A stretch of DNA of 64,000 bases, taken from positions 163,486 to 227,485 of the forward strand of contig CAZOAL010000003.1 of the NCBI GenBank assembly GCA_964577695.1, read 5' to 3'. The notes beneath the pieces were generated by a model. It saw nothing but the letters and a program-made list of their open reading frames with translations. It did not search any database and was not told where the DNA came from. A program made the translations under genes and the position numbers. The stretch comes from an uncultured bacterium (GTDB lineage: Bacteria; Poribacteria; WGA-4E; PCPOR2b). Position 1 is the stretch's first letter, and each line of letters starts with the position of its first letter. Below are positions 4,575 through 62,720 of the stretch, piece by piece.

Positions 4575-4662
4575 TTGACACTTTGGACTCAGGACTCAGG
4601 ATTCAGGATTCAACTACATCTTGCATCTTGCATCTTGCATCTTGCATCTTGTATCTTGTATC
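4575..4662. repeat. tandem heptamers (GGACTCA/GGATTCA)x4 followed by (CTTGCAT)x4(CTTGTAT)x2
   Basis: read directly at 4581-4608 and 4616-4660; lies inside the 5' part of track ORF 4535..6394 but upstream of the likely true start. Confidence 0.85.
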
Positions 4663-7869: not shown

Positions 7870-8200
7870 GCAAATGTGCAAATGGAAGGAGAGGAAGAAA
7901 AGGAAGGATGGAAGGAAGGAAGGATGGAAGAAGGGAAGGATGGAGGGATGGAAGAATGGAAGATTGGAAGGATGGAAGATTGGAAGGATGGAAGGATGGA
8001 AGGATGGGAAGGATGGAAGATTGGAAGGATGGAGGGATGGAAGGATGGAAGATTGGAAGGATGGAAGAATGGAAGGATGGAAGGATGGGAAGGATGGAAG
8101 ATTGGAAGGATGGAGGGATGGAAGGATGGAAGGATGGAAAGGAAGAAGTTTTTCACGTTTCGCGTTTCACGTTTCACGTTTCACGTTTTACGCCATAAGC
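7866..8200. repeat. about 290-bp degenerate GGAAGGAT/GGATGGAA tandem tract followed by (GTTTCAC/GTTTCGC)x5
   Basis: read directly; the four overlapping track ORFs here encode WKDGRMEG / HPSILPSF low-complexity repeats and are repeat artefacts. Confidence 0.9.
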
Positions 8201-9455: not shown

Positions 9456-9493
9456 TTAGTGCATCGCGGCATAAGTTTTGACCCCCCCTCGGT

Positions 9494-9580
9494 CCCCCCG
9501 TGGACGGGGGGAAGGAAACGCCCCTCCCCGCCCTTCTCCCTCCCTGTCCACGGGGAGGGCCGGGGTGGGGGGAGGCCGGG
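9494..9580. repeat. GC-rich palindromic (REP-like) hairpins just after the stop codon
   Basis: ccccccgtggacgggggg 9494-9511; ccctccctgtccacggggaggg about 9540-9562. Confidence 0.6.
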
Positions 9581-9689
9581 TGGGGGTAAACATCTGTCGA
9601 GTTATTTCTGCCTTGAAGCACTGGTCAACCACAGTGATGATGAATGTTGTGAGGGGGTTGCACCCCCGAACTCAAACTGTCGGGGGTAC

Positions 9690-9905
9690 AACCCCCTTAG
9701 AACCATACATCAAAATCCGAAATCCCAGATCCTTCCGAAGGTTTCAAACCTACGACTTTTTCAGTTATGGGCAAAAGTGAGGCCCAGACTTCCGAAGTTT
9801 CCACAGATGAGTTGAGCGGAGACGATGCAAAACCATGAAAAACCGATTCATCAAAAATCTGGTCTCAAACTTCGGAAGTCTAAGTGAAAAACTCGTATCA
9901 AACCT
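9690..9905. repeat. MITE-like palindromic element, family A (TIR ...cgactttttcagttatgggcaaaagtga...; internal gacttccgaagttt / aaacttcggaagtct)
   Basis: near-identical copies at 21835-21995 and 53105-53300; a partial hairpin at 19060-19100. Confidence 0.8.
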
Positions 9906-10071
9906 TCGGAAGGTTTCGCACAAAGGTGGGGTCGTTATTTCCGCCGATGCGTACTACCTTTTTACCAAAATGCAGATTTTTATTTACATGGGGCGGAAAA
10001 ATTGGTAAGATTTAATACCTTGCTTCCGCCGTTGGTTGCGGAAGCCAACAAATTTGATGGAGGAATTTTTC

Positions 10072-11043
10072 ATGAGTGGAGATGTGTTGCGTTTTGGAGT
10101 CGTTGGTTTAGGAATGGGGATGTCCCGTTCCAATACGATCGCCACCACGGAAGGTGCCCAACTGGTTGCCGTTGCAGACCTCGTTGAGGGGCGACGCAAA
10201 GCGGCCGCGGAGAAGTTGGGTTGTGATACTTACGACGATGCGATCAAGATGTTTGAACGTGACGAGCTAGACGTCGCAATGATCATGACGCCGAGCGGTT
10301 TGCATGCAAAACTCGGTATTGAGGCTGCCAAGCGCGGCAAGCATGTGATTACCACGAAGCCGATGGACGTGAATCTGGATAACTGCGATGCGCTGATTCG
10401 TGCCTGTGAGGAAAATCATGTAAAACTGCTGGTGGACTTTGGCGAACGTTATGGCGAGTGGAATCGTAAGATTCGTGCGGCGCTGGAGATGGGAGCGCTT
10501 GGAAAACCCATCCTGTGCGAACTGCGCATGAAGTGGTTCCGTGCTGACAGCTATTATGAGGGGTGGCACGGCACCTGGGAGCTCGATGGCGGCGGTTCTG
10601 TGATGAACCAGGGCGTGCATTATATCGATCTCGTGCAGTGGTTCATGGGGCCCGTTGCGCGTGTGCTGGGCGCTCATTACGGTGTGTATGCACATGAGCA
10701 TTGTGAAACGGAAGACCTCACCTCGGCGATTATCGAGTTCAAGAGCGGCGCAATTGGCACTGTGTTGACGACCACGACCTTCCCCGGCGACAGTGTCTCG
10801 ATGGTCCAGATTCACGGCGAGAAAGGGGTAATCGGCATCGACCCCCATGTATGGCAGTTTAAGGAGGGAGAACCAGAAATTAATCTACCCCCTTATCCGA
10901 AGAACGTGATTCAGGACGCCATCCGGGTCATTCGAGATGGAGCGCAACCGGCGGTGGATGGCTACGAGGGCAAGAAGTCCGTCGCGCTCAACCTGGCAAT
11001 CTACGAATCCGCTCGCAAAGGCCAACCGGTTGTGCCCGGTTAA
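10072..11043 (+). CDS. Gfo/Idh/MocA family NAD(P)-dependent oxidoreductase
   Basis: MSGDVLRFGVVGLGMG Rossmann N-terminus; RBS ggagg at 10058. Confidence 0.8.
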   Translation: MSGDVLRFGVVGLGMGMSRSNTIATTEGAQLVAVADLVEGRRKAAAEKLGCDTYDDAIKMFERDELDVAMIMTPSGLHAKLGIEAAKRGKHVITTKPMDVNLDNCDALIRACEENHVKLLVDFGERYGEWNRKIRAALEMGALGKPILCELRMKWFRADSYYEGWHGTWELDGGGSVMNQGVHYIDLVQWFMGPVARVLGAHYGVYAHEHCETEDLTSAIIEFKSGAIGTVLTTTTFPGDSVSMVQIHGEKGVIGIDPHVWQFKEGEPEINLPPYPKNVIQDAIRVIRDGAQPAVDGYEGKKSVALNLAIYESARKGQPVVPG

Positions 11044-11049
11044 AAAAGG

Positions 11050-11200
11050 AGTGGTCATCATTCAGAGTACACCTGTAGTCTAGTACCCTGTCACACAAGA
11101 TTTGACCAGTTCGTAGTGGCGACTTCAGTCGCTCTTTTGAACGTTACTACGAAAAGCCAACTTATTGCAAATTAATTTGACAAGGGGCTAGACTACGACT
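11050..11200. repeat. palindromic repeat element, family C (gtagtctagtaccctg ... cgtagtggcgacttcagtcgc ... ggggctagactacgac)
   Basis: reverse-complement copy of the core at 54660-54682 (gcgactgaagtcgccactacg), with the flanking gggggctaaactacgat palindrome at 54725-54770. Confidence 0.65.
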
Positions 11201-11234
11201 GGATTGACCGATAATTATGAGGAGGGAAAATAGG

Positions 11235-12017
11235 ATGGTCTTGACATCAGATTCGATTCATCATTATCGCGAACAGGGATATTTGGTCGTTGAAGATTTG
11301 TTCGCACCTGACGAGTGTGAGGAGATTAATCGCTATGCAGCGGATGTGGTGATGGGGAGGATACCGCTTCCGGAGCGAACCGGAATCTGGATGGAGCCTG
11401 CTGCGGAGGAGATGGGATTGGTGAAGGCGGACAACCGGTACGACTATCTGTTTAAGATCGGCCATCAGATGCACATAGCCGATCCGGTTTTTCAGCGCTA
11501 TGCTGTGCATCCACGGCTGGCGGACGTACTTGAAGGGCTCATCGGGCCGGACGTCAAGTGCGTGCAGAGTATGTACATCGACAAGCCCCGTGGAATCGGA
11601 ATTGGGCAGCCGTACCATCAGGACGCCTGGTATCTGAAAACTGACCCCGATACACTGATGGCAGTCTGGATTGCCTGCGATGATGCGGATTTAGACAACG
11701 GCTGCCTGCATGTCGTCCCCGGCAGTCAGAACGACCCCATCCATACCCACGAGAAGCCGATTGACCCCGACCAGCGCATCTATGCCGAGGTGCATAGCGC
11801 ACGCTCACGCCCAGAGGTCGCTGTGCCGCTCAAGACAGGCAGTGCCGTGTTCTTCGGTGGGCATGTACTGCACCGGTCGGGCAACAACTGCTCGAATCGG
11901 AAGCGGCGATGTTATGTCCTCCACTATGCCGACGCGAAGTCGAAATGGCTCAATGATCCGAAGGCAAAGAATCCGTTTTTGCTGGTGAGAGGGAAAGAAT
12001 ATCCGGGGTGTCTGTAA
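11235..12017 (+). CDS. phytanoyl-CoA dioxygenase (PhyH) family Fe(II)/2OG oxygenase
   Basis: HQDAWY ... HVVPGSQ ... HYA motif spacing typical of PhyH; RBS gaggaggg before ATG 11235. Confidence 0.8.
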   Translation: MVLTSDSIHHYREQGYLVVEDLFAPDECEEINRYAADVVMGRIPLPERTGIWMEPAAEEMGLVKADNRYDYLFKIGHQMHIADPVFQRYAVHPRLADVLEGLIGPDVKCVQSMYIDKPRGIGIGQPYHQDAWYLKTDPDTLMAVWIACDDADLDNGCLHVVPGSQNDPIHTHEKPIDPDQRIYAEVHSARSRPEVAVPLKTGSAVFFGGHVLHRSGNNCSNRKRRCYVLHYADAKSKWLNDPKAKNPFLLVRGKEYPGCL

Positions 12018-12073
12018 CTCATTGTCAATCATCATCTTGACCATTACAATTTCAGCAAAGAAGGCAGATTACG

Positions 12074-12436
12074 ATGACAGACGAGATGATTACAACGCTT
12101 TCCTTCGATGAACTTCCCCCTGATGATGAATCGGCGTGGGAGCAGTTTGATCGCTTAACCGATGCAGAATGTGAAGAGAGACAAGATAGAGACAATCCGC
12201 CGTTGACAGCGGAACAGCGAAAACAATTCAGGCGGGCTTATTTCGTCAAAGGGGAAATGGTCTGGAAAGATGACAAAACGATTGGGGAATTGTTGAAAGA
12301 GAAGGGAGAGGCCCCGACAATCATTCCTGTGGATTCGGACATTGCCGAATGGTTCAAAGCACAAGGGCAAGACTTTAAAGCCCTCATGAATGCAGCACTC
12401 AGAGATTATGTCTCCGCTCACCAAAACGCCCGTTGA
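12074..12436 (+). CDS. BrnA-like (DUF4415) antitoxin-family protein, with no adjacent toxin gene
   Basis: C-terminal IPVDSDIAEWFKAQGQDFKALMNAALRDYVSAHQ resembles BrnA-family antitoxins. Confidence 0.5.
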   Translation: MTDEMITTLSFDELPPDDESAWEQFDRLTDAECEERQDRDNPPLTAEQRKQFRRAYFVKGEMVWKDDKTIGELLKEKGEAPTIIPVDSDIAEWFKAQGQDFKALMNAALRDYVSAHQNAR

Positions 12437-12452
12437 TTGAAAGGGAATCCTG

Positions 12453-15400
12453 ATGCAACAACTTTCCTTGAAACCCACGCACAAGCCTGTCAGGGCATAT
12501 TATGACGCCTTAGCTCGATTTCACGCCATCGGTGTTGCGCATGAAACCGCCGTGCGCTCTGCCTTTTTTAGCCTGCTCGAATCCTGCGGGCGTCAGTTTG
12601 ATTGGACGCTGGTCCCAGAGTGGCCGATGAAACGAGGCAAGAACCAACGGATTATTGTGGACGGTGCGCTCGTGGATGCGTATCACTTGACGCACGGCTT
12701 CTGGGAAGCGAAGGATAGTCAAGATGACCTGGAACGGGAAATCGACAAGAAGTTTTCTACTGGCTACCCCAGAGATAATATCCTGTTTCAGGCACCTGAA
12801 CGGGCAATCCTCTGGCAGAATGACCGACAGGTTCTGGATGCCGATCTCACCCAAGTCGATCAGTTAATCGAAACGCTCACAGCCCTCTTGGAGTATCGCC
12901 CCCCTGATTATGTCGAATGGGAGAAAGCGGTTGCGGAGTTCAAAGACCGCGTTCCTGACTTGGCAACAGGGCTTGTGAGACTCATCGAAAAGGAACGGCA
13001 AACCAACACGCGCTTTCTCTCAGCCTTCACTGTTTTCACCGAGAAGTGTCGTCAATCGATAAACCCTAACATCTCCTCAGCGGCGGTCGAGGAGATGTTG
13101 ATTCAGCACTTGCTCACCGAACGCATCTTCCGCACGGTCTTTCACAACCCGGATTTCAGGGATAAAAATGTCATCGCTTGCGAAATCGAAACGGTGATTC
13201 GAGCTTTGACTTCCCAATCCTTCAGCAGAGATCAATTCCTCAAGAACCTCGATCGGTTCTATGTCGCGATTGAACGAACCGCCGCCACGATTGACGACTT
13301 CTCTCACAAACAGCATTTCCTCAACACGGTCTACGAACAATTCTTTCAAGGCTACTCCGTCAAGGTCGCTGACACACACGGCATCGTCTACACCCCACAG
13401 CCGATTGTCACGTTCATGGTCAAGAGTGTGGAGGACATCTTGCAAAAAGAGTTTGGCAGGTCGCTTTCTGATAGGGACGTGCATATCATCGATCCGTTCG
13501 TGGGAACGGGTAACTTCATCGTGCACGTCATGCAGGAGATCAGGAAAACCGCGCTCCCTCACAAATATGCCCATGAACTCCACTGTAACGAGGTGATGCT
13601 CCTGCCCTACTACATCGCTTCGATGAACATCGAACACGAATACTTTGAAGCAACGGGACACTATCAGCCCTTTGAAGGCATCTGCTTGGTGGATACGTTT
13701 GATCTGGCAGAGGAACGGCAACTCCCGCTGTTTGTTGAGGAAAACACGGCGCGGGTGGAAAAGCAGAAGCGGACGCCGATGTTTGTGATTATCGGGAATC
13801 CGCCGTACAATACGACACAGGTGAATGAGAATGATAATAACAAGAATCGGAAGTATGAAACGATAGATAAGCGCGTGTCGGAAACATACGCAAAAGATTC
13901 AAAGGCTACTAATGTCAATAAGCTGAGTGATCCCTACGTCAAAGCGATTCGTTGGGCATCAGATCGGATCGGTGAGGAAGGTATCGTCGCATTCGTGACG
14001 AACAATAGTTTTATGGATCAAATTGCCTTTGATGGGATGCGTCAACACTTAGCAAAAGATTTTGATGTGATTTATGTCCTCGACTTGAGCGGCAATGTCA
14101 GGAAGAATCCGAAGCTATCAGGCACCACGCATAACGTGTTTGGCATTCAGGTAGGCGTCAGTATTAACCTTTTCATCAGAAAAAGTCAGGCACCCAAAAA
14201 CGCCGCACAGATCCATTACGCACGGGTGGATGAGTTTTGGCGAAAAGAGGAGAAGTATCGGTATCTGGACGAAAAGCAACACAGAGGCACTATTGATTGG
14301 CAATCTATCCAGCCAGATAAGAAAAAGGCGTGGCTGACGGAAGGTCTACACGATGAGTTTGAAACGCTCATATCCATGGGGAATAAGGCATCGAAATCTG
14401 CGAGGGGAGAGGCTGTCGATGCGATCTTCAAGGTTTACAGTCTCGGCGTTGTTACCAACCGCGATACTTGGGCGTACAACTTCAACCGAGATACCCTCAT
14501 CGGAAACATCAAACGAACCATCGCAACCTACAACGAGCAGGTCTTAAAGTGGATTCACCGATCGAATAAAGATGCGAACGTGGATGACTTTGTGCTGTAT
14601 GACGATAGCAGACTGAGCTGGAGCAGAGACTTAAAAGCGGATCTCAACAGAGGACGGCTGGCGGAATTTTCGGAGGAAAAGGTGAGGCAATCCCTCTACC
14701 GCCCGTTTACTCGCACCACTCTGTTCTTTGATCGAATCTTGAACCAGGATGTTTTTGTCTTTCCTTCCATTTACCCCATGCCTGAAACAGAAGCGGAGAA
14801 TCGGGTGATTTGCCTAAGCGCAGTTGGAAATAACAAGGCATTTCATTGTTTAGTGGTAAATATCATACCAGATTTACACTTGACTGGTGATTCTCAATCC
14901 TTCCCCTTCTACACCTACAACGAGGACGGCACGAACCGCCGCGAAAACATTACCGACTGGTCACTCGCTCAATTCCGCAATCACTATGCCCAATCCGCAA
15001 TCCGCAATCCGCAATCCGCAATCGAAAAATGGGATATATTCCACTACGTCTATGCTGTGCTGCATCACCCCGATTATCGTGAACGGTATCAAGCCAACCT
15101 GAAGCGAGAATTGCCCCGCATTCCCTTTGCGCCCGATTTCTGGGCGTTTGCCAGTGCAGGGGAACGCTTGGCAGAGATTCACGTCCACTATGAGGAGCAG
15201 CCCGAATATCCGCTGAAAATGGTTGAGACTCCCAATCAGCGGCTCGATTGGCGTGTCGAGAAGATGCGGCTTTCCAAAGACAAGACGCAACTTCGCTACA
15301 ACGATTTCTTGACGCTGGACGGGGTTCCATCGGAAGCGTTTGACTATCGGCTCGGCAATCGCTCGGCGTTGGATTGGGTGATAGACCAGTATCAGGTCAA

Positions 15401-15554
15401 GACCGACTCACGAAGCGGTATCGTCAATGACCCCAATCGACAGGATGACCCCGAATACATTGTCCGTTTGATTGGACAGGTGATCACCGTGAGTCTGGAA
15501 ACGGTGAAGATTGTGAAGGCTTTGCCAGAGCTGGGGATACCATCGGAAGGGTAA
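12453..15554 (+). CDS. single-polypeptide Type IIL/IIG restriction-modification enzyme (MmeI-like): N-terminal PD-ExK nuclease, gamma-class N6-adenine methyltransferase, C-terminal target-recognition domain
   Basis: PD-ExK signature in IVDGALVDAYHLTHGFWEAKD; methyltransferase motif IV VIIGNPPYN; 1033 aa. Confidence 0.75.
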   Translation: MQQLSLKPTHKPVRAYYDALARFHAIGVAHETAVRSAFFSLLESCGRQFDWTLVPEWPMKRGKNQRIIVDGALVDAYHLTHGFWEAKDSQDDLEREIDKKFSTGYPRDNILFQAPERAILWQNDRQVLDADLTQVDQLIETLTALLEYRPPDYVEWEKAVAEFKDRVPDLATGLVRLIEKERQTNTRFLSAFTVFTEKCRQSINPNISSAAVEEMLIQHLLTERIFRTVFHNPDFRDKNVIACEIETVIRALTSQSFSRDQFLKNLDRFYVAIERTAATIDDFSHKQHFLNTVYEQFFQGYSVKVADTHGIVYTPQPIVTFMVKSVEDILQKEFGRSLSDRDVHIIDPFVGTGNFIVHVMQEIRKTALPHKYAHELHCNEVMLLPYYIASMNIEHEYFEATGHYQPFEGICLVDTFDLAEERQLPLFVEENTARVEKQKRTPMFVIIGNPPYNTTQVNENDNNKNRKYETIDKRVSETYAKDSKATNVNKLSDPYVKAIRWASDRIGEEGIVAFVTNNSFMDQIAFDGMRQHLAKDFDVIYVLDLSGNVRKNPKLSGTTHNVFGIQVGVSINLFIRKSQAPKNAAQIHYARVDEFWRKEEKYRYLDEKQHRGTIDWQSIQPDKKKAWLTEGLHDEFETLISMGNKASKSARGEAVDAIFKVYSLGVVTNRDTWAYNFNRDTLIGNIKRTIATYNEQVLKWIHRSNKDANVDDFVLYDDSRLSWSRDLKADLNRGRLAEFSEEKVRQSLYRPFTRTTLFFDRILNQDVFVFPSIYPMPETEAENRVICLSAVGNNKAFHCLVVNIIPDLHLTGDSQSFPFYTYNEDGTNRRENITDWSLAQFRNHYAQSAIRNPQSAIEKWDIFHYVYAVLHHPDYRERYQANLKRELPRIPFAPDFWAFASAGERLAEIHVHYEEQPEYPLKMVETPNQRLDWRVEKMRLSKDKTQLRYNDFLTLDGVPSEAFDYRLGNRSALDWVIDQYQVKTDSRSGIVNDPNRQDDPEYIVRLIGQVITVSLETVKIVKALPELGIPSEG
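14988..15022 (+). repeat. (CAATCCG)x~4.7 heptamer tandem repeat inside the RM coding sequence
   Basis: cccaatccgcaatccgcaatccgcaatccgcaatcg, encoding QSAIRNPQSAIRNPQSAIE; the 7-bp unit is not a multiple of 3. Confidence 0.9.
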
Positions 15555-15628
15555 GAAAGCAGAGCGGGCAAAACCATCAGACGAACAGCTTGAACTGCTC
15601 TGATAGATTGGATAGAAAGGAAAAAAAG

Positions 15629-15904
15629 ATGAAAACCATTGCCATTGAACAGGCAAAATTAAAGATAAAAGAATCACTTGCATCAAACGACACCCTAATC
15701 GACCAGCGCGAATTAGCGAAAATGCTAGGCATCAATATAAAAGCCGTGGCGCGCGCGTATCACGAGCTGGTCGAGGAAGGCATTGTTCACGAAGAAACCT
15801 ACTTTCTTTGGAAAAACCCGGTCATGCGTCAGCGTCTTTTTGAAGCGATGCAAAGCCAAGAATATATTCCATTTGAGGTGGTTCGTGAAAGACTTGGTAT
15901 TTAA
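15629..15904 (+). CDS. Phd/YefM-position antitoxin
   Basis: MKTIAIEQAKLKIKE N-terminus; immediately upstream of and overlapping the YoeB gene; RBS aaagg at 15615. Confidence 0.6.
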   Translation: MKTIAIEQAKLKIKESLASNDTLIDQRELAKMLGINIKAVARAYHELVEEGIVHEETYFLWKNPVMRQRLFEAMQSQEYIPFEVVRERLGI

Positions 15905-16145
15905 GCCACAAGCGCTTCAAGATTTAGAATGGTGGATTAAGCAAAATCGAAAAGTGGCATTACGAATTTTGTCTCTGTTGCGAGAAATTCAGCAAACCCC
16001 CTTTCATGGCAGAGGTAAGCCTGAGCTTCTGAGGCACCAATATGCCGGTTGCTGGTCCAGACGTATCGATCAAGTCAATCGTATTGTTTATCAGGTTGAA
16101 ACGGATAAAATTATTGTTCATGCCTGCAAAGGTCACTACCAATGA
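15885..16145 (+). CDS. yoeB: YoeB/Txe-family type II toxin (ribosome-dependent mRNA interferase)
   Basis: ...REIQQTPFHGRGKPELLRHQYAGCWSRRIDQVNRIVYQVETDKIIVHACKGHY matches YoeB along its length; GTG start at 15885, 20-nt overlap with the antitoxin. Confidence 0.8.
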   Translation: MKDLVFKPQALQDLEWWIKQNRKVALRILSLLREIQQTPFHGRGKPELLRHQYAGCWSRRIDQVNRIVYQVETDKIIVHACKGHYQ

Positions 16146-16320
16146 AAACCGCCGCCATTTATGCCCGCGACTCACCTGGGCGTGACCGAGACCAGACCTC
16201 CACCATCGATGAAGCGCACATCGACATAGACCGTGCCATCTAGCAGATTTCACCAGAAATAGACAGTCATCGGAGATTTACAATACGGAACAGGAGTCAC
16301 ACGCAGAAGGGAGACAACAG

Positions 16321-16941
16321 ATGCGAGATTTGATCATTCTGGGACTCGGGGCGCACGGCCCGGAGATGGCGGAAATGGTGGAGGCGGTCAACCGCGTAAA
16401 AGAGACATGGCACCTGCGTGGCTTCATCTCCCCGGATGGACATCAGGTTGGGGAGTCTGTCAACGGTTACCCCGTCCTTGGCACGATGGAGGTGTTAAAG
16501 GATTACCCAGATGCTGATGTGGTGCCTCACAACGAGGGGACCGAGCGCCTGAACGTCCCCCGCCATCGGCTAGTGTCACTCATCCATCCCAGCGCCGTTG
16601 TGTCCCGCACGGCGCACATTGGCGTTGGCTGTGTCATTTATCCGCACTGTTACGTCGGTCTCAATGCACGGATAAATGATTTCGTCTTTTGCCTGAGTGG
16701 GTGTATCATCAATCACGATGATGTCATCGAAGAGCGGGTAATCTTCGCGAGTGGGGTCACGCTGGCGGGCGTCGTGCATGTGGAGTCCGACTGCTACCTG
16801 GGTCAGGGGTGTCAGGTCAGGCAACACTTGAGAATCGGTCGGAACAGCCTGATTGGTATGGGCGCGGTGGTGGTCACGGATGTTCCACCGAACAGCGTCA
16901 TGGTCGGCAATCCGGCTCGGAAACTGAGAGAGCGGGGATGA
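16321..16941 (+). CDS. PglD/NeuD-family sugar O-acyltransferase (left-handed beta-helix, hexapeptide repeats)
   Basis: Rossmann-like N-terminus MRDLIILGLGAHG followed by hexapeptide repeats (IGVGCVIYPHCYVGLNARIND...). Confidence 0.7.
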   Translation: MRDLIILGLGAHGPEMAEMVEAVNRVKETWHLRGFISPDGHQVGESVNGYPVLGTMEVLKDYPDADVVPHNEGTERLNVPRHRLVSLIHPSAVVSRTAHIGVGCVIYPHCYVGLNARINDFVFCLSGCIINHDDVIEERVIFASGVTLAGVVHVESDCYLGQGCQVRQHLRIGRNSLIGMGAVVVTDVPPNSVMVGNPARKLRERG

Positions 16942-17254
16942 GCGGACGCCGCGACTGGCTCGGCGTGGATTGACACATCCACGCCACGACTGCCGCTGGA
17001 TTTGTCAATCCAGCGAGAGCAGGAAAAATGTTAGCTACTGAAGTCATCGGACATAATTATTTGAGGCTTGGTCATAATTACCGGCAGATCCCGTTTGGCT
17101 ATGACTTTGCCGTGGGAGCAACCTCCCGGTCGCGAGGCGATGAATCGAGTCCGGCAGGACTCTCCCACAGAATTATGACCAACCCTCAATTATTTTGATA
17201 TTCGCCCCCATTCTGGATGCTTGAGACACTGCTTCCCCGACAAATTAAAAATTG

Positions 17255-17300
17255 AAGATTGAAGATTGAAACATCCGCAATCGACAATTGACAATCGACA
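17255..17300. repeat. tandem heptamers (GATTGAA)x3 then CAATCGACA/ATTGACA units
   Basis: aattgaagattgaagattgaaacatccgcaatcgacaattgacaatcgacaaagg. Confidence 0.8.
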
Positions 17301-17313
17301 AAGGAGATTTTAC

Positions 17314-18863: not shown

Positions 18864-19138
18864 TGAGCGGAAAGGGGAATGTTTTAGAAACCTCTTTACA
18901 CGCTTTGGGGTTGGAAGATTGGAAGAATGGAAGGATGGGTGGCAGGGCTTCATCTTCCATTCGTGCAGGTTTCCTGCTCTCATATCAAGTGCAAACTCAT
19001 TTTTTCAGGAATTTGAAACATGCCACTATTAGTCAACCAAATTTAATCTGAGGGATAGACTTCCGAAGTTTCCGAAACTTCGGAAGTCTGCGAGTCCATC
19101 AATTTAAATTTGGTGAAGCACTCTAAGGAGAAAAAATA

Positions 19139-27844: not shown

Positions 27845-27880
27845 CAGGCGTGAAACGTGAAACGTGAAACGTGAAATGTG
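27845..27880. repeat. (GTGAAAC)x3-4 heptamer repeat
   Basis: gtgaaacgtgaaacgtgaaacgtgaaatgtgagg. Confidence 0.85.
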
Positions 27881-27912
27881 AGGATTTGAACCCATGAACT
27901 GATGAACACCCT

Positions 27913-30805: not shown

Positions 30806-30900
30806 CATGAAACGTATTGCGTATTGCGTATTGCGTACTGCGTATTGCGTGAGTCGTGATACCTGAACCTAACACCTAACACCTAACACCTGACACCTAA
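30806..30900. repeat. (GCGTATT)x5 followed by (CACCTAA)x5 heptamer tracts
   Basis: cgtattgcgtattgcgtattgcgtactgcgtattgcg ... cctaacacctaacacctaacacctgacacctaac. Confidence 0.9.
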
Positions 30901-30916
30901 CGAACGAGGAATAAAA

Positions 30917-32167
30917 ATGATCGAATTTGATAAACTCATAGTGCCCGGAGTCGGCGAAAGAATTGGTAGAGAAAACGGTCGATTGGTTTTTCCCAATCGT
31001 CCGATTATTCCTGTGATTGAGGGCGATGGCATTGGCAGAGACATCATGCGTGCCACTCGCCGGGTGATCGATGCCGCCGTTGAAACCGCCTACGGTGGAG
31101 CCAAACGAATCGCGTGGTTTGATATTTATGCCGGCGAGAAAGCCAACGAAATGTATGGGGAATGGTTGCCCCAGGACACCTTCAAAGCCATTCAGTATTT
31201 TCGGGTTGCCCTGAAGGGGCCCTTGACAACGCCTGTCGGCGGCGGATTTCGTAGCTTAAATGTGACCCTCCGTCAAGAACTAGACCTGTATGCGTGCGTT
31301 CGCCCGGTGCGCCATTTTCAAGGGGTGCCTTCCCCCGTGACGCACCCGGAAAAAATGGATGTCGTCATTTTCCGGGAAAATACCGAAGACGTTTATGCAG
31401 GAATCGAATGGGCGCAGGGAACGCCGGAAGCGAAGAAAGTGATTGAATTTCTCCGCACGCAGATGGGAGCGGACATCCGTGAAGACTCAGGGATCGGTAT
31501 TAAGCCGATCAGCATTTTCGGGACGAAGCGCCTGGTGCGAATGGCGCTCCAATACGCCATCGATCATCACCGCCGGAGTGTCACGCTCGTTCACAAGGGC
31601 AACATTATGAAATTCACGGAAGGTGCTTTCCGTGATTGGGGCTATGAAGTTGCGAAGGAAGAATTCGGGGGTCAGACGGTCACAGAAGATGCGGTTTATA
31701 GCCAATACAATGGGAGAATCCCTGAAGGAAAGATTGTTATTAAAGATCGGATCGCGGATAGCATGTTACAGCAGATCTTGACACGAACGGACGACTACGA
31801 CGTCATTGCAACACCTAACCTGAACGGTGACTACCTCTCCGATGCCTGCGCCGCGCAGGTGGGTGGAATCGGGATGGCACCGGGTGGCAACATCGGTGAT
31901 GAACAGGCGCTGTTTGAAGCCACCCATGGGACTGCGCCCAAGTACACCGATCAAGACGTGTCCAATCCCAGTTCACTCATCCTTTCGGCGGTGATGATGC
32001 TCGAACACATCGGTTGGCAGGGTGCCGCAGATCTCGTGACTCAGGGGCTTGGGCAGGCAATTCTACAAAAGCGTGTGACTTATGACCTCGAACGTTTGAT
32101 GGAAGGCGCGACGAAACTTCACACCTCGGAGTTTGGAACCGCAATTATTGAGAATTTTAAATCATAA
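30917..32167 (+). CDS. icd: NADP-dependent isocitrate dehydrogenase
   Basis: collinear with E. coli Icd from the N-terminus ([15 protein letters not shown]...). Confidence 0.85.
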
Positions 32168-32226
32168 TGCGTAATACGTAATGCGTAAAAATCCTACTTA
32201 TTACGCATTACGTATTACGTATTACG
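32166..32226. terminator. heptamer-built hairpin (aatgcgtaatacgtaatgcgtaa / ttacgcattacgtattacgtattacgcatt) after icd
   Basis: perfect inverted heptamer arrays directly after the stop. Confidence 0.55.
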
Positions 32227-32242
32227 CATTCAGGAGAAACAA

Positions 32243-50892: not shown

Positions 50893-50992
50893 TGTGTGAA
50901 ACGTGAAACGTGAAGAGGAACATGCAAACACCTAACACCTAACACCTAATACCTAACACCTTCCACGCATCACGTTTCACGACTTAAAAGGA
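50893..50992. repeat. heptamer hairpin element: (GTGAAAC)x3 ... (CACCTAA)x4 ... CGTTTCACG
   Basis: read directly. Confidence 0.85.
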
Positions 50993-62096: not shown

Positions 62097-62621
62097 TTAG
62101 GTGATGTCGGGGCCAATCGCCTCGCGCACCGCCGCCACCACGTCAACGATATCCTCATCCTTCTCCTGCAAGCGGTTATGCGAATAGGGCCCCTTGATAC
62201 ACACCTCCGCCTTAATCGCGCTGAACCCAAATCCCACCGCATCCTTTGCCTTCGCTACGAGGCTTTCCCTGTACTCCGCCAACGTGTTGCCCGCCGGGAG
62301 AAGGCTGGCATACGGGGTCAGCTCGGGCTGTTTAGCGCCTCCCAATAGCTTCCAGATCGGTTTCCCCTCGGCTTTTCCGCGAATATCCCACAGTGCCATA
62401 TCAAGCGCACCCATGGCACAGATACCAAGCCCTCGCCGTCCGTTCATCGCAGAGCCGATGTACAGTTTTTCCCACAACGCCTCCACCTGTAGTGGGTCTT
62501 GACCGATGAGCATCTCCTTAAGCCCCAAGCCCATGCAGTGCGTTCCGGGTGCCTCGATCAACGCCTTTACCGCCCAGGGATTGGTGTCTGTTTCACCGAT
62601 ACCGACGAGCCCTTCGGTCAA
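62097..62621 (-). pseudogene. internal fragment of an enolase-superfamily (MR/MLE) dehydratase gene
   Basis: aligns to residues ~40-210 of the 20683..21810 protein (GIGET...ALWDIRGK...LLGG); it lacks the N-terminal about 40 aa and the whole C-terminal barrel; 5' side abuts the heptamer tract. Confidence 0.6.
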
Positions 62622-62720
62622 TTGTCAATTGTCAATTGTCAATTGTCAATTGTCGATTGTCAATTGTCGATTGTCGATCCCCTCCTTCCCTTCCTTCCCT
62701 TCCTTCCCTTTCTTCCTCTT
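62610..62720. repeat. (CAATTGT)x4(CGATTGT) tract followed by (CCTTCCCTT)n
   Basis: read directly. Confidence 0.9.

What the first reader, a model, noticed from the sequence alone, without database searches (positions are those of the whole stretch)
12074..16145. Defense island: BrnA-like gene, MmeI-like Type IIL RM enzyme and YefM/YoeB
A 1033-aa single-chain RM enzyme (PD-ExK nuclease + NPPY N6A methyltransferase + TRD) is flanked by two TA-type genes. The upstream one is a toxin-less BrnA-like antitoxin gene 17 nt before the RM gene, and the downstream one is a complete YefM/YoeB pair. An antitoxin-like DNA-binding protein placed directly before an RM gene could be acting as a controller (C-protein analogue).
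Basis: partly seen in the sequence, partly recalled or inferred. Interest (0 to 1): 0.55.

Follow-up and report, generated by a model that had tools for sequence, protein, structure and literature searches.

The report
DrdV-type restriction enzyme between toxin-antitoxin modules
An intact single-protein restriction-modification enzyme of a known, structurally solved family (DrdV-like Type IIL) sits between the stump of one toxin-antitoxin module and a complete, unusual second one; the arrangement comes from recombination, and nothing indicates that the small upstream gene controls the enzyme.

Summary
All four genes are at the stated coordinates. The 1033-aa protein is a full-length homologue of the Type IIL enzyme DrdV (PDB 7LO5, E=2e-207). 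All five DrdV nuclease active-site residues, the SAM-binding motif and NPPY are conserved, and there is no ATPase motor.

The upstream BrnA gene is intact, but it is the stump of a brnT-brnA operon. The last 20 brnT codons survive at 12049-12111, and a 91%-identical BrnA elsewhere sits in a normal brnTA pair. None of 80 loci with homologues of the RM enzyme has BrnA upstream, and no other small gene recurs there. The idea that BrnA acts as a controller (C-protein analogue) therefore has no support.

The downstream pair is a complete TA module with a true YoeB toxin. Its antitoxin is not YefM: it combines a GntR-type winged helix with a YefM-like C-terminal tail, and this combination is rare.

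- The RM gene is a recombination mosaic, with a divergent centre (second half of the MTase domain plus most of the TRD) between near-identical flanks.
- It carries a perfect heptanucleotide repeat, (CAATCCG)x4.7, in frame inside the TRD, which meets a published criterion for potential phase variation.

Overall this is ordinary: a new member of a known kind.

The parts
12022..12050 (+). Sigma-70-like promoter match TTGTCA-17-TACAAT, sitting on the junction where brnT homology begins. It is a candidate promoter for a brnA-RM transcript.
   Evidence: Best match (10 of 12) in 11000-17300. It is a consensus match only; function is inferred.
12049..12111 (+). 3' stump of brnT: the last 20 codons plus the stop, ISAKKADYDDRRDDYNAFLR*. 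It overlaps the brnA start as in intact brnTA operons.
   Evidence: Homology of L091, L095 and L096 to the window starts at exactly 12049. The translation matches the BrnT C-terminus.
12074..12436 (+). brnA: an intact BrnA/DUF4415-family antitoxin gene with no toxin partner.
   Evidence: Pfam PF14384 E=3.5e-10. It is 91% identical to P0121, which sits in a brnT-brnA pair. In 8 of 9 homologue loci with upstream DNA, BrnT is upstream of BrnA.
12453..15554 (+). Type IIL restriction-modification enzyme, DrdV family, 1033 aa. Domains: PD-ExK nuclease (about aa 1-160), helical connector/coupler (aa 163-282), gamma-class N6A MTase (from aa 287), TRD (aa 657-1006).
   Evidence: PDB 7lo5 E=2.3e-207 over residues 27-1025. 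Pfam domains. PADLOC REase_MTase_IIG PDLC03621 matches full length, E=2.8e-191. Catalytic residues are conserved.
13742..15241 (+). Divergent allelic segment of the RM gene (second half of the MTase domain plus most of the TRD) between near-identical flanks.
   Evidence: Against L092, identity is 93-97% at 13292-13741, 60-82% at 13742-15241 and 93-100% at 15242-16167.
14991..15023 (+). Perfect heptanucleotide tandem repeat (CAATCCG)x4.7 in frame inside the TRD. It encodes part of a 7-aa loop insertion (AQSAIRNPQSAIEKW).
   Evidence: TRF: period 7, 100% matches. The insertion is absent from L001, L010, L092 and most of the 80 homologues. A change of +/-1 or 2 units truncates the protein to 871-887 aa.
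15629..15904 (+). Antitoxin of the YoeB module, 91 aa: a GntR-type winged-helix domain (about aa 1-54) plus a YefM-like toxin-binding tail (aa 55-91).
   Evidence: Pfam HTH_24 and GntR. PDB 6sbs E=1e-5 over residues 3-65. The tail aligns with E. coli YefM 49-70. The AF2 model is all-helical and its fold hits are wHTH. yoeB follows in 4 of 4 homologue loci.
15885..16145 (+). yoeB toxin gene, 86 aa from GTG 15885, overlapping the antitoxin gene by 20 nt.
   Evidence: PF06769 E=1.7e-27, TIGR02116. PDB 2a6q E=7e-19. E47, R66, H84 and Y85 align with E. coli YoeB E46, R65, H83 and Y84.

Best explanation
The region is a 4.1-kb patch of three independently acquired modules, placed between a PhyH-family dioxygenase gene and a NeuD-like acetyltransferase gene.

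1. A decayed brnTA toxin-antitoxin operon. Only the last 20 codons of brnT and an intact brnA remain.

2. An intact Type IIL restriction-modification gene of the DrdV family.
   - By analogy with DrdV (inferred, not shown here), one polypeptide binds an asymmetric site through its MTase-TRD cleft and slowly methylates one adenine on one strand.
   - It cuts at a fixed distance downstream only when several enzyme molecules bound to unmethylated sites assemble, so that their N-terminal PD-ExK domains pair in trans.
   - Self/non-self discrimination is therefore kinetic and built into the enzyme, so no controller protein is needed.

3. A complete two-gene TA module. A YoeB ribosome-dependent mRNA interferase is neutralised by a chimeric antitoxin that has a GntR-type winged-helix DNA-binding domain and a YefM-like C-terminal tail.

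The brnA-RM adjacency is a by-product of recombination. Only 16 nt separate the two genes, and a promoter-like site lies on the upstream junction, so the RM gene is probably read from a transcript that starts at or before brnA (inferred). That would be passive co-transcription, not regulation.

The RM gene itself is a population-level mosaic. Its centre (the second half of the MTase domain plus most of the TRD) has been exchanged between alleles through conserved flanks, which is the usual way such enzymes change specificity.
For: RM identity and integrity:
-, with DrdV residues and mechanism from bioRxiv 10.1101/2021.01.06.425610.
- The window residues E31, D70, E85, K87 and K100 match the DrdV active site.
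- LlaGI and LlaBIII align only from residue 190 onwards, so the motor is absent.

brnTA decay:
- BrnA homologues at 91% and 68% identity lie in brnT-brnA pairs.
- Homology of three independent loci to the window starts at exactly 12049, inside brnT. Homology to L091 stops at 12444, 8 nt after the brnA stop.
- The BrnT C-terminus is readable at 12049-12111.
- There is no BrnT elsewhere in the 64-kb window.

No conserved partner for the RM gene:
- tblastn with BrnA, the antitoxin and YoeB finds nothing in 80 RM-homologue loci with up to 4 kb of flank on each side.
- Upstream ORFs are heterogeneous. A Pfam tally of 60 of them finds no BrnA and no family in more than 2 loci.
- The closest RM relative, L001 (89% nt), has different flanks on both sides.

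TA module:
- YoeB.
- Antitoxin fold.
- Tail.
- yoeB overlaps downstream in 4 of 4 homologue loci, whose upstream neighbours vary.

Mosaicism: identity profiles.

GC content is 0.47-0.50 in 12-16 kb against 0.52-0.56 in the flanking bins.
Against: - No activity, methylome or transcript data exist. Enzyme function is inferred from conserved residues and a homologue that one search aligns over nearly its whole length (694 bits).
- Only part of the DrdV dimer-interface charge cluster is conserved: by my reading of the alignment, R252/D253 are kept, while D224, D231 and K251 are not. Assembly-dependent cleavage may therefore differ in detail.
- The 7-aa repeat-encoded insertion in the TRD could affect activity.
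- brnA is still an intact ORF with dN/dS about 0.4, so some retained function cannot be excluded. One example would be neutralising a BrnT encoded elsewhere.
- RM 3' end + antitoxin + yoeB travel together at 97% identity in L092-L094. That linkage is not purely accidental within this population.
- The promoter call is a consensus match in an organism whose promoters are uncharacterised.
Confidence: 0.8

Rival explanations
1. BrnA has been co-opted as a controller (C-protein analogue). It would bind upstream of brnA-RM and time or limit RM expression.
For: - The topology mimics C-R operons: a small DNA-binding-type protein gene lies 16 nt upstream of, and probably co-transcribed with, the nuclease-bearing gene. 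C genes are co-transcribed with REase genes (PMC2175313, abstract seen).
- brnA is intact although its toxin is gone.
Against: - The adjacency is unique to this window among 80 genome loci plus L001 and L010.
- The same brnA (94.7% nt identity) sits in an ordinary brnTA operon elsewhere.
- The 5' part of the operon, where the native operator would be expected, has been deleted.
- No significant inverted repeat lies in 11900-12600.
- BrnA is not an Xre-type HTH like known C proteins.
- A fused R+M polypeptide has no separate R gene to delay.
Confidence: 0.06
2. The RM gene is phase-variable. Slippage of the (CAATCCG)n tract by +/-1 or 2 units switches the enzyme, methylation included, OFF by frameshift, producing mixed populations.
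For: - A perfect 4.7-unit tract lies inside the ORF. It meets the threshold of at least 3 units used to call mod genes potentially phase-variable (PMC5909438).
- A change of +/-1 or 2 units truncates the protein to 871-887 aa, removing about 150 residues of the TRD.
- The present allele differs from relatives by exactly 3 units (21 nt), the smallest frame-preserving expansion.
- It is the only array of at least 2.5 units lying deep inside a gene, out of about 20 period-7 arrays in the window.
- Degenerate heptamer arrays occupy the same loop in L055 and L073.
Against: - No length variants were observed. Close relatives simply lack the tract.
- Period-7 arrays are a genome-wide feature here, so this one may be a neutral spill-over into a tolerant loop.
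- Four to five units is short for high switching rates.
- Homologues that are inactivated carry point nonsense mutations or unrelated indels, not repeat-linked frameshifts.
Confidence: 0.12
3. The wHTH-antitoxin/YoeB module is functionally tied to the RM gene as an addiction module that stabilises the RM cassette.
For: L092-L094 carry a different RM allele (60-82% identity in the centre) followed, after the same 75-nt spacer, by the same antitoxin and yoeB at 97-100% identity.
Against: - Three other antitoxin-yoeB loci (L102-L104) have unrelated upstream genes.
- None of 80 RM-homologue loci has this YoeB or antitoxin within 4 kb.
- The shared block may simply be inherited linkage within one population.
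Confidence: 0.15
4. The enzyme is inactive, or acts only as a methyltransferase (a decaying RM gene).
For: - 7 of 80 homologues are visibly inactivated: 5 carry in-frame stops and 2 carry a frameshift or deletion.
- An insertion sits in the TRD.
Against: - The ORF is uninterrupted and aligns with DrdV from residue 27 to 1025.
- All five nuclease residues, the SAM motif and NPPY are conserved.
- The insertion lies in a loop that carries 7-14-aa insertions in several intact homologues.
Confidence: 0.1

Closest known systems
DrdV (Type IIL RM enzyme, PDB 7LO5/7LVV; bioRxiv 10.1101/2021.01.06.425610)
   Same: Same length class (1033 vs 1029 aa) and the same domain order: nuclease, helical connector, MTase, TRD. 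It aligns over residues 27-1025 at E=2e-207. The nuclease residues E, D, E-x-K, K and the NPPY motif are conserved. There is no ATPase.
   Different: The sequence is diverged, so the recognition sequence is probably not DrdV's CATGNAC and cannot be predicted here. The dimer-interface charge cluster is only partly conserved. A repeat-encoded 7-aa insertion sits in the TRD.
Type ISP enzymes LlaGI / LlaBIII (PDB 5FFJ, 4XQK)
   Same: The coupler, MTase and TRD are clearly homologous (E=1e-152 to 1e-157; Pfam ISP_coupler and Type_ISP_C).
   Different: The window protein has no RecA-like ATPase/translocase module and no Mrr-like nuclease. Homology starts only at residue 190. The mechanism is therefore not translocation and collision.
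MmeI (founding Type IIL enzyme)
   Same: Same enzyme type and overall logic: an N-terminal PD-ExK nuclease, a gamma-class MTase and a TRD in one chain, with single-strand methylation.
   Different: No MmeI-specific Pfam domain reaches threshold (only MmeI_Mtase, at 21.9 bits against a cut-off of 27). It belongs to a different sequence family.
C-protein-controlled Type II RM systems (e.g. PvuII; PMC2175313)
   Same: A small gene lies immediately upstream of, and probably co-transcribed with, the nuclease-bearing gene.
   Different: The upstream protein is a BrnA/DUF4415 antitoxin, not an Xre-type HTH. There are no C-box-like repeats and no conserved association. R and M are fused, so delayed expression of a separate R gene is not needed.
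BrnTA type II TA system (Pfam PF04365/PF14384)
   Same: brnA is full length and closely related to brnA genes that sit in brnT-brnA operons with the same 38-nt overlap.
   Different: brnT is reduced to its last 20 codons and its promoter-proximal part is gone, so this is an orphan antitoxin.
YefM-YoeB (E. coli; PDB 2A6Q)
   Same: The toxin is a bona fide YoeB with the catalytic E, R, H and Y in place. The antitoxin gene is upstream and overlapping. The antitoxin C-terminal tail resembles YefM 49-70.
   Different: The antitoxin's N-terminal domain is a GntR-type winged helix and not the Phd/YefM fold. Full-length relatives are rare: about 5 clusters among 1.84 billion representatives. The same tail is also found on RHH-type and YefM-like N-domains.

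Membership tests
Type IIL RM enzymes, DrdV family | One polypeptide with N-terminal PD-ExK nuclease, helical connector, gamma-class N6A MTase and C-terminal TRD, in that order | tested here: met
   Aligns end to end with DrdV. Pfam ISP_coupler 163-282, N6_Mtase 287-475, Type_ISP_C 657-1006. PADLOC REase_MTase_IIG matches full length.
Type IIL RM enzymes, DrdV family | Nuclease active-site residues (DrdV E25, D64, E79, K81, K94) and the MTase NPPY / SAM motifs | tested here: met
   Window E31, D70, E85, K87 and K100; NPPY at 449; DPFVGTGNF at 347.
Type IIL RM enzymes, DrdV family | No ATP-dependent translocase domain | tested here: met
   The protein is 1033 aa, and LlaGI/LlaBIII align only from residue 190. 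No helicase Pfam hit.
Type IIL RM enzymes, DrdV family | Methylates one adenine on one strand of an asymmetric site and cleaves at a fixed distance when several sites are bound | not testable with these tools
   Needs methylome data or biochemistry.
MmeI family | MmeI-specific domains (Pfam MmeI_N, MmeI_hel, MmeI_Mtase, MmeI_TRD, MmeI_C) | tested here: not met
   Only MmeI_Mtase appears, below threshold (21.9 bits vs 27). The N-terminal 166 aa give no Pfam hit.
Type ISP RM enzymes | RecA-like ATPase motor between the nuclease and the coupler | tested here: not met
   Absent.
C-protein (controller) regulated RM | Xre-type HTH controller protein | tested here: not met
   The upstream protein matches only BrnA_antitoxin.
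C-protein (controller) regulated RM | Conserved association of the controller gene with the RM gene across relatives | tested here: not met
   0 of 80 loci have BrnA, and no upstream family occurs in more than 2 loci.
C-protein (controller) regulated RM | Operator (C-box-like inverted repeats) upstream of the controller gene | tested here: not met
   The only inverted repeat found in 11900-12600 has 12-nt arms at 83% complementarity, separated by 68 nt. Binding was not testable.
BrnTA type II TA | BrnT toxin gene immediately upstream of, and overlapping, brnA | tested here: not met
   Only a 20-codon stump remains. No BrnT elsewhere in the window.
YefM-YoeB type II TA | YoeB/Txe toxin with catalytic Glu, Arg, His and Tyr | tested here: met
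   PF06769, TIGR02116, PDB 2a6q. The catalytic-residue positions in E. coli YoeB come from my own knowledge of that literature.
YefM-YoeB type II TA | Antitoxin with a Phd/YefM N-terminal fold | tested here: not met
   No PhdYeFM hit at E<=5. The hits are GntR/HTH_24 and PDB 6sbs. The AF2 model is all-helical and its fold hits are wHTH.
Phase-variable RM/methyltransferase genes | Intragenic simple-sequence repeat of at least 3 units whose unit length is not a multiple of 3 (criterion of PMC5909438) | tested here: met
   (CAATCCG)x4.7, perfect, inside the ORF.
Phase-variable RM/methyltransferase genes | Observed tract-length variation with ON/OFF alleles | tested here: inconclusive
   No relative carries the tract. 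The source reads are not available.

The most novel reading that the evidence does not exclude
The perfect in-frame heptanucleotide tract (CAATCCG)n in the TRD could be a contingency switch that turns a Type IIL restriction-modification enzyme, and with it a genome-wide 6mA pattern, ON and OFF in an uncultured environmental (Poribacteria-like) bacterium. Heptamer arrays recur in the same loop in distant homologues (L055, L073), which would then reflect repeated selection for such a switch. A secondary novelty is the winged-helix/YefM-tail chimeric antitoxin as a rare, undescribed partner of YoeB.
Probability: 0.12. Interest if true: 0.55.

Novelty: new member of a known kind. Interest (0 to 1): 0.28.

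Why it matters
- As found, it matters little. It adds one more intact DrdV-family Type IIL enzyme with an unknown recognition site to a very large family: more than 8000 database relatives, often with two copies in one genome.
- It is a clean small example of how RM and TA genes are shuffled as separate cassettes. The breakpoints can be mapped to within about 10 nt at the brnA-RM junctions and to roughly 150 nt inside the RM gene, and the gene's centre has been swapped between conserved flanks.
- The example warns against reading regulation into the adjacency of small DNA-binding genes and RM genes.
- Two side observations could repay a cheap follow-up. One is the intragenic heptamer repeat in the RM gene, in a genome full of intergenic heptamer arrays. 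The other is a YoeB antitoxin built from a GntR-type winged helix plus a YefM tail, a tail that also occurs on RHH-type and YefM-like N-domains.

Tried and rejected
- **Exact-sequence look-up of the window's PhyH protein**, to find the source genome or an island-free allele: nothing on record. The island boundaries and an empty site could not be defined.
- **The 33-aa ORF at 16142-16243** (MKTAAIYARDS...) looked to me like the N-terminus of a serine recombinase. It has no Pfam hit at E<=5 and no PDB hit at E<=10, so I dropped the claim.
- **dN/dS of brnA**: 0.43 against L091, similar to the 0.39-0.53 seen between other copies. There are too few substitutions to say whether the orphan is under relaxed selection.
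- **Repeat-linked frameshifts in inactivated RM homologues**: none. The lesions are single nonsense codons, one short C-run indel and one deletion.
- **The heptamer unit elsewhere**: absent from all 104 fetched loci and from the rest of the window.
- **Metagenome scan with BrnA**: only 7 loci. It supports the BrnT pairing but is too small for statistics.
- **Rfam and tRNA scans of the window**: nothing. There is no tRNA integration site.
- **Foldseek on the antitoxin model**: only weak E-values (0.25 or higher), although every top hit is a winged-helix domain. I treat this as supportive only.
- **Flanking direct repeats** as target-site duplications: nothing convincing.

Full report
**Observation**

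The + strand between 12074 and 16145 carries four genes between a PhyH-family dioxygenase gene (11217-12017) and a NeuD-like acetyltransferase gene (16321-16941):
- a 120-aa BrnA-family gene at 12074-12436 (Pfam PF14384, E=3.5e-10);
- a 1033-aa ORF at 12453-15554;
- a 91-aa ORF at 15629-15904;
- a YoeB gene ending at 16145 (PF06769 E=1.7e-27; TIGR02116 E=2e-25).

The brnA-RM spacer is 16 nt. GC content is 0.47-0.50 in 12-16 kb and 0.52-0.56 in the adjacent bins.

**The RM enzyme**

- Pfam finds ISP_coupler (163-282), N6_Mtase and Eco57I (287-545) and Type_ISP_C (657-1006). MmeI_Mtase is below threshold, and the first 166 residues give no hit.
- Among solved structures the best match is 7lo5/7lvv, the Type IIL enzyme DrdV (1029 aa), aligned over residues 27-1025 at E=2.3e-207.
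[quoted passage not shown] Their motor and nuclease modules are therefore absent here.
- The DrdV paper (bioRxiv 10.1101/2021.01.06.425610) names the nuclease active site as D64, E79 and K81 with K94 and E25, and the flipped adenine as contacted by N448 and Y451 of NPPY. In the ungapped N-terminal block these map to window E31, D70, E85, K87 and K100. NPPY is at 449 and the SAM motif DPFVGTGNF at 347.
- PADLOC's REBASE-derived Type IIG model PDLC03621 matches the full length at E=2.8e-191.

The enzyme is Type IIL, as proposed, but of the DrdV/ISP-related family and not the MmeI family. The family is very large: 8000 candidates all scored E<=1e-20, with the best hits 69-74% identical. Four contigs each carry two copies.

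**BrnA**

- Its closest relatives are short proteins, some named as Candidatus Poribacteria BrnA by NCBI.
- The 68%-identical P0129 lies in a brnT-brnA pair with overlapping genes in 7 of the 8 contigs shown; the eighth begins only 68 nt before brnA. The 91%-identical P0121 lies in the same kind of pair.
- Homology of L091 (94.7% nt), L096 and L095 to the window begins at exactly 12049 in all three, inside the 3' end of brnT. For L091 it ends at 12444, 8 nt after the brnA stop.
- The frame at 12049-12111 reads ISAKKADYDDRRDDYNAFLR*, the BrnT C-terminus.
- brnA is thus the surviving half of a brnTA operon whose 5' 80% has been replaced. No other BrnT is detectable in the window.
- A sigma-70-like match (TTGTCA-17-TACAAT, 10 of 12, the best in 11000-17300) lies at 12022-12050, on that junction. 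With only 16 nt between brnA and the RM ATG, co-transcription is likely, but this is inferred.

**Test of the controller idea**

I fetched 80 genome loci encoding RM homologues at 53-70% identity, from Poribacteria, Caldilineaceae, cyanobacteria, Acidobacteriota and others.
- tblastn with BrnA, the antitoxin and YoeB found none of them in the flanks held for these loci (up to 4 kb on each side). BrnT-type genes lie near two of them: L058 downstream and L081 divergent.
- Upstream ORFs are heterogeneous and mostly spurious.
- In a Pfam scan of the 60 most plausible ones, no BrnA appeared and no family occurred in more than two loci. The two families seen twice were DUF2283 and Uma2.
- The nearest RM relative, L001 (89% nt), has unrelated flanks on both sides. 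L010 (73%) has only an unclassified 63-aa ORF 190 nt upstream.
- C proteins are autogenous activators co-transcribed with a separate REase gene (PMC2175313). A fused R+M enzyme that discriminates kinetically, as DrdV does, has no such requirement.

I put the controller hypothesis at about 0.06.

**The downstream TA module**

- YoeB aligns with E. coli YoeB (2a6q, E=7e-19). E47, R66, H84 and Y85 fall at the positions of the catalytic E46, R65, H83 and Y84; the residue roles are from my own knowledge of that literature.
- GTG 15885, preceded by GAGGTG, gives an 86-aa product that starts like E. coli YoeB and overlaps the antitoxin gene by 20 nt.
- The antitoxin has no Phd/YefM match even at E<=5. 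It matches HTH_24 (above threshold), GntR, and the YtrA-like GntR regulator 6sbs (E=1e-5, residues 3-65).
- An AF2 model (pLDDT 81) is all-helical. Its fold hits are winged-helix domains, at weak E-values.
- Residues 55-76 align with E. coli YefM 49-70 (pairwise E=2e-4; YefM sequence from memory).
- An exhaustive HMMER search of 1.84 billion representatives found 12 hits. About five are full-length relatives. Two share only the tail, one with an RHH-like N-terminus and one with a weak PhdYeFM match.
- In all four homologue loci with downstream DNA, yoeB follows and overlaps the antitoxin gene. The upstream genes vary.

The pair is therefore a complete TA module, but its antitoxin is a domain chimera and not YefM.

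**Mosaic structure of the RM gene**

- L092-L094 match the window at 96.8% over 15138-16167 (RM 3' end, antitoxin, yoeB) but at 73-78% upstream of that.
- A 150-nt identity profile against L092 gives 93-97% for 13292-13741, 60-82% for 13742-15241 and 93-100% for 15242-16167.
- L001 is 98-100% identical at 14350-14949 but 71-79% at 13000-13299 and 14950-15249.
- The second half of the MTase domain and most of the TRD have therefore been exchanged between alleles through conserved flanks. This is the pattern described for mod-gene alleles (PMC5909438), and it implies alleles of different specificity (inferred).
- L096 carries brnT, an interrupted brnA, an integrase, a vapBC-like pair and a 45-codon stump of this RM gene. 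This shows how freely these cassettes are reshuffled.

**The intragenic repeat**

- TRF finds a perfect (CAATCCG)x4.7 at 14991-15023.
- It encodes part of a 7-aa insertion (HYAQSAIRNPQSAIEKW against HYQDETIGKW in L001), in a TRD loop that carries insertions in a few intact homologues. In L055 and L073 the insertion at the same position is a degenerate heptamer array.
- The extra 21 nt equal exactly three units. A change of +/-1 or 2 units would truncate the protein to 871-887 aa.
- The window holds about 20 period-7 arrays. Almost all lie in short intergenic spacers or at the extreme 5' ends of over-called ORFs. The RM tract is the exception.
- It meets the criterion of at least 3 units used to call mod genes potentially phase-variable.
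- However, no length variants were seen, and the inactivated homologues (7 of 80) carry unrelated lesions.

I rate real phase variation at about 0.12.

**Verdict**

It is wrong or unsupported on the family name, on 'YefM' and on the controller idea. The locus is a recombination patchwork of a known Type IIL enzyme, an orphan antitoxin and an unusual but conventional YoeB module. It is a new member of a known kind, of low to moderate interest.

The source organism is not in the searchable collections. A Poribacteria-like origin is inferred only from the best named homologues. Several of the closest contigs come from groundwater metagenomes.

Noticed in passing
window 14991-15023: A perfect heptanucleotide repeat (CAATCCG)x4.7 lies in frame inside the RM gene's TRD. 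It is three units longer than the repeat-free length in relatives. A change of +/-1 or 2 units would truncate the enzyme.
   Followed up: partly
whole window, e.g. 814-983, 4585-4662, 8151-8192, 17251-17301, 27849-27881, 30813-30901, 32165-32230, 50896-50961, 62617-62675: About 20 tandem arrays of period 7 with differing units lie in 64 kb, nearly all in short intergenic spacers just before or after genes. They are reminiscent of cyanobacterial STRR sequences and of the intergenic TAACTGA repeats of Beggiatoaceae (PMC4679880, title and abstract only). There are also long period-8 arrays (ATGGAAGG x32 at 7882-8139; 847-946).
   Followed up: partly
window 9480-9590; L092 1830-1891: GC-rich palindromes of the type CCCCCCGTsGACGGGGGG fill part of a 580-nt non-coding gap in the window. 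The same kind of element is inserted in frame, adding about 20 aa, in a second TRD loop (RIPFAP|FWAF) of the RM allele in L092. L001, L043 and L081 carry other palindromic in-frame insertions in TRD loops.
   Followed up: partly
window 9730-9915 and 19061-19087: The palindrome CTTCGGAAG / TTCCGAAG(G/T)TTTC recurs four times in one intergenic region and three times (TRF period 9) in another. There is no Rfam match.
   Followed up: no
window 16142-16243: A 33-aa ORF (MKTAAIYARDSPGRDRDQTSTIDEAHIDIDRAI) overlaps the yoeB stop. By eye it resembles a serine-recombinase N-terminus, but it has no Pfam or PDB support. Homology to L092-L094 ends at 16167, inside it.
   Followed up: yes
L096 (Ga0209640_10027651) 1-2800; L091 2-406: A contig carries brnT, a brnA interrupted after codon 83, an RHH gene, a small tyrosine-recombinase-like gene, a vapBC-like pair and a 45-codon stump of the same RM gene. 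The same recombinase gene precedes brnTA in L091. This suggests a mobile or cassette-shuffling context.
   Followed up: partly
L001 2-388: The closest RM relative (89% nt) is 5'-truncated: it starts at ...WEAKD and so lacks the catalytic Asp. It directly follows a gene fragment resembling a phage tail-fibre intramolecular chaperone (SDRRLKKRIEP...). The classification is by eye only. The contig may be a prophage context or an assembly chimera.
   Followed up: no
L012/L024, L013/L020, L015/L025, L023/L038: Several MAG chromosomes or contigs (Caldilineaceae, Poribacteria) carry two DrdV-family genes each. 7 of 80 homologues are inactivated by a single nonsense codon, a frameshift or a deletion.
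   Followed up: partly
L022 and L025, directly upstream of the RM gene: Two Poribacteria loci have a 94%-identical DUF2283 gene ending 23 nt before, or overlapping, the RM start. Together with Uma2 (also in two loci), this is the only upstream family seen more than once.
   Followed up: no
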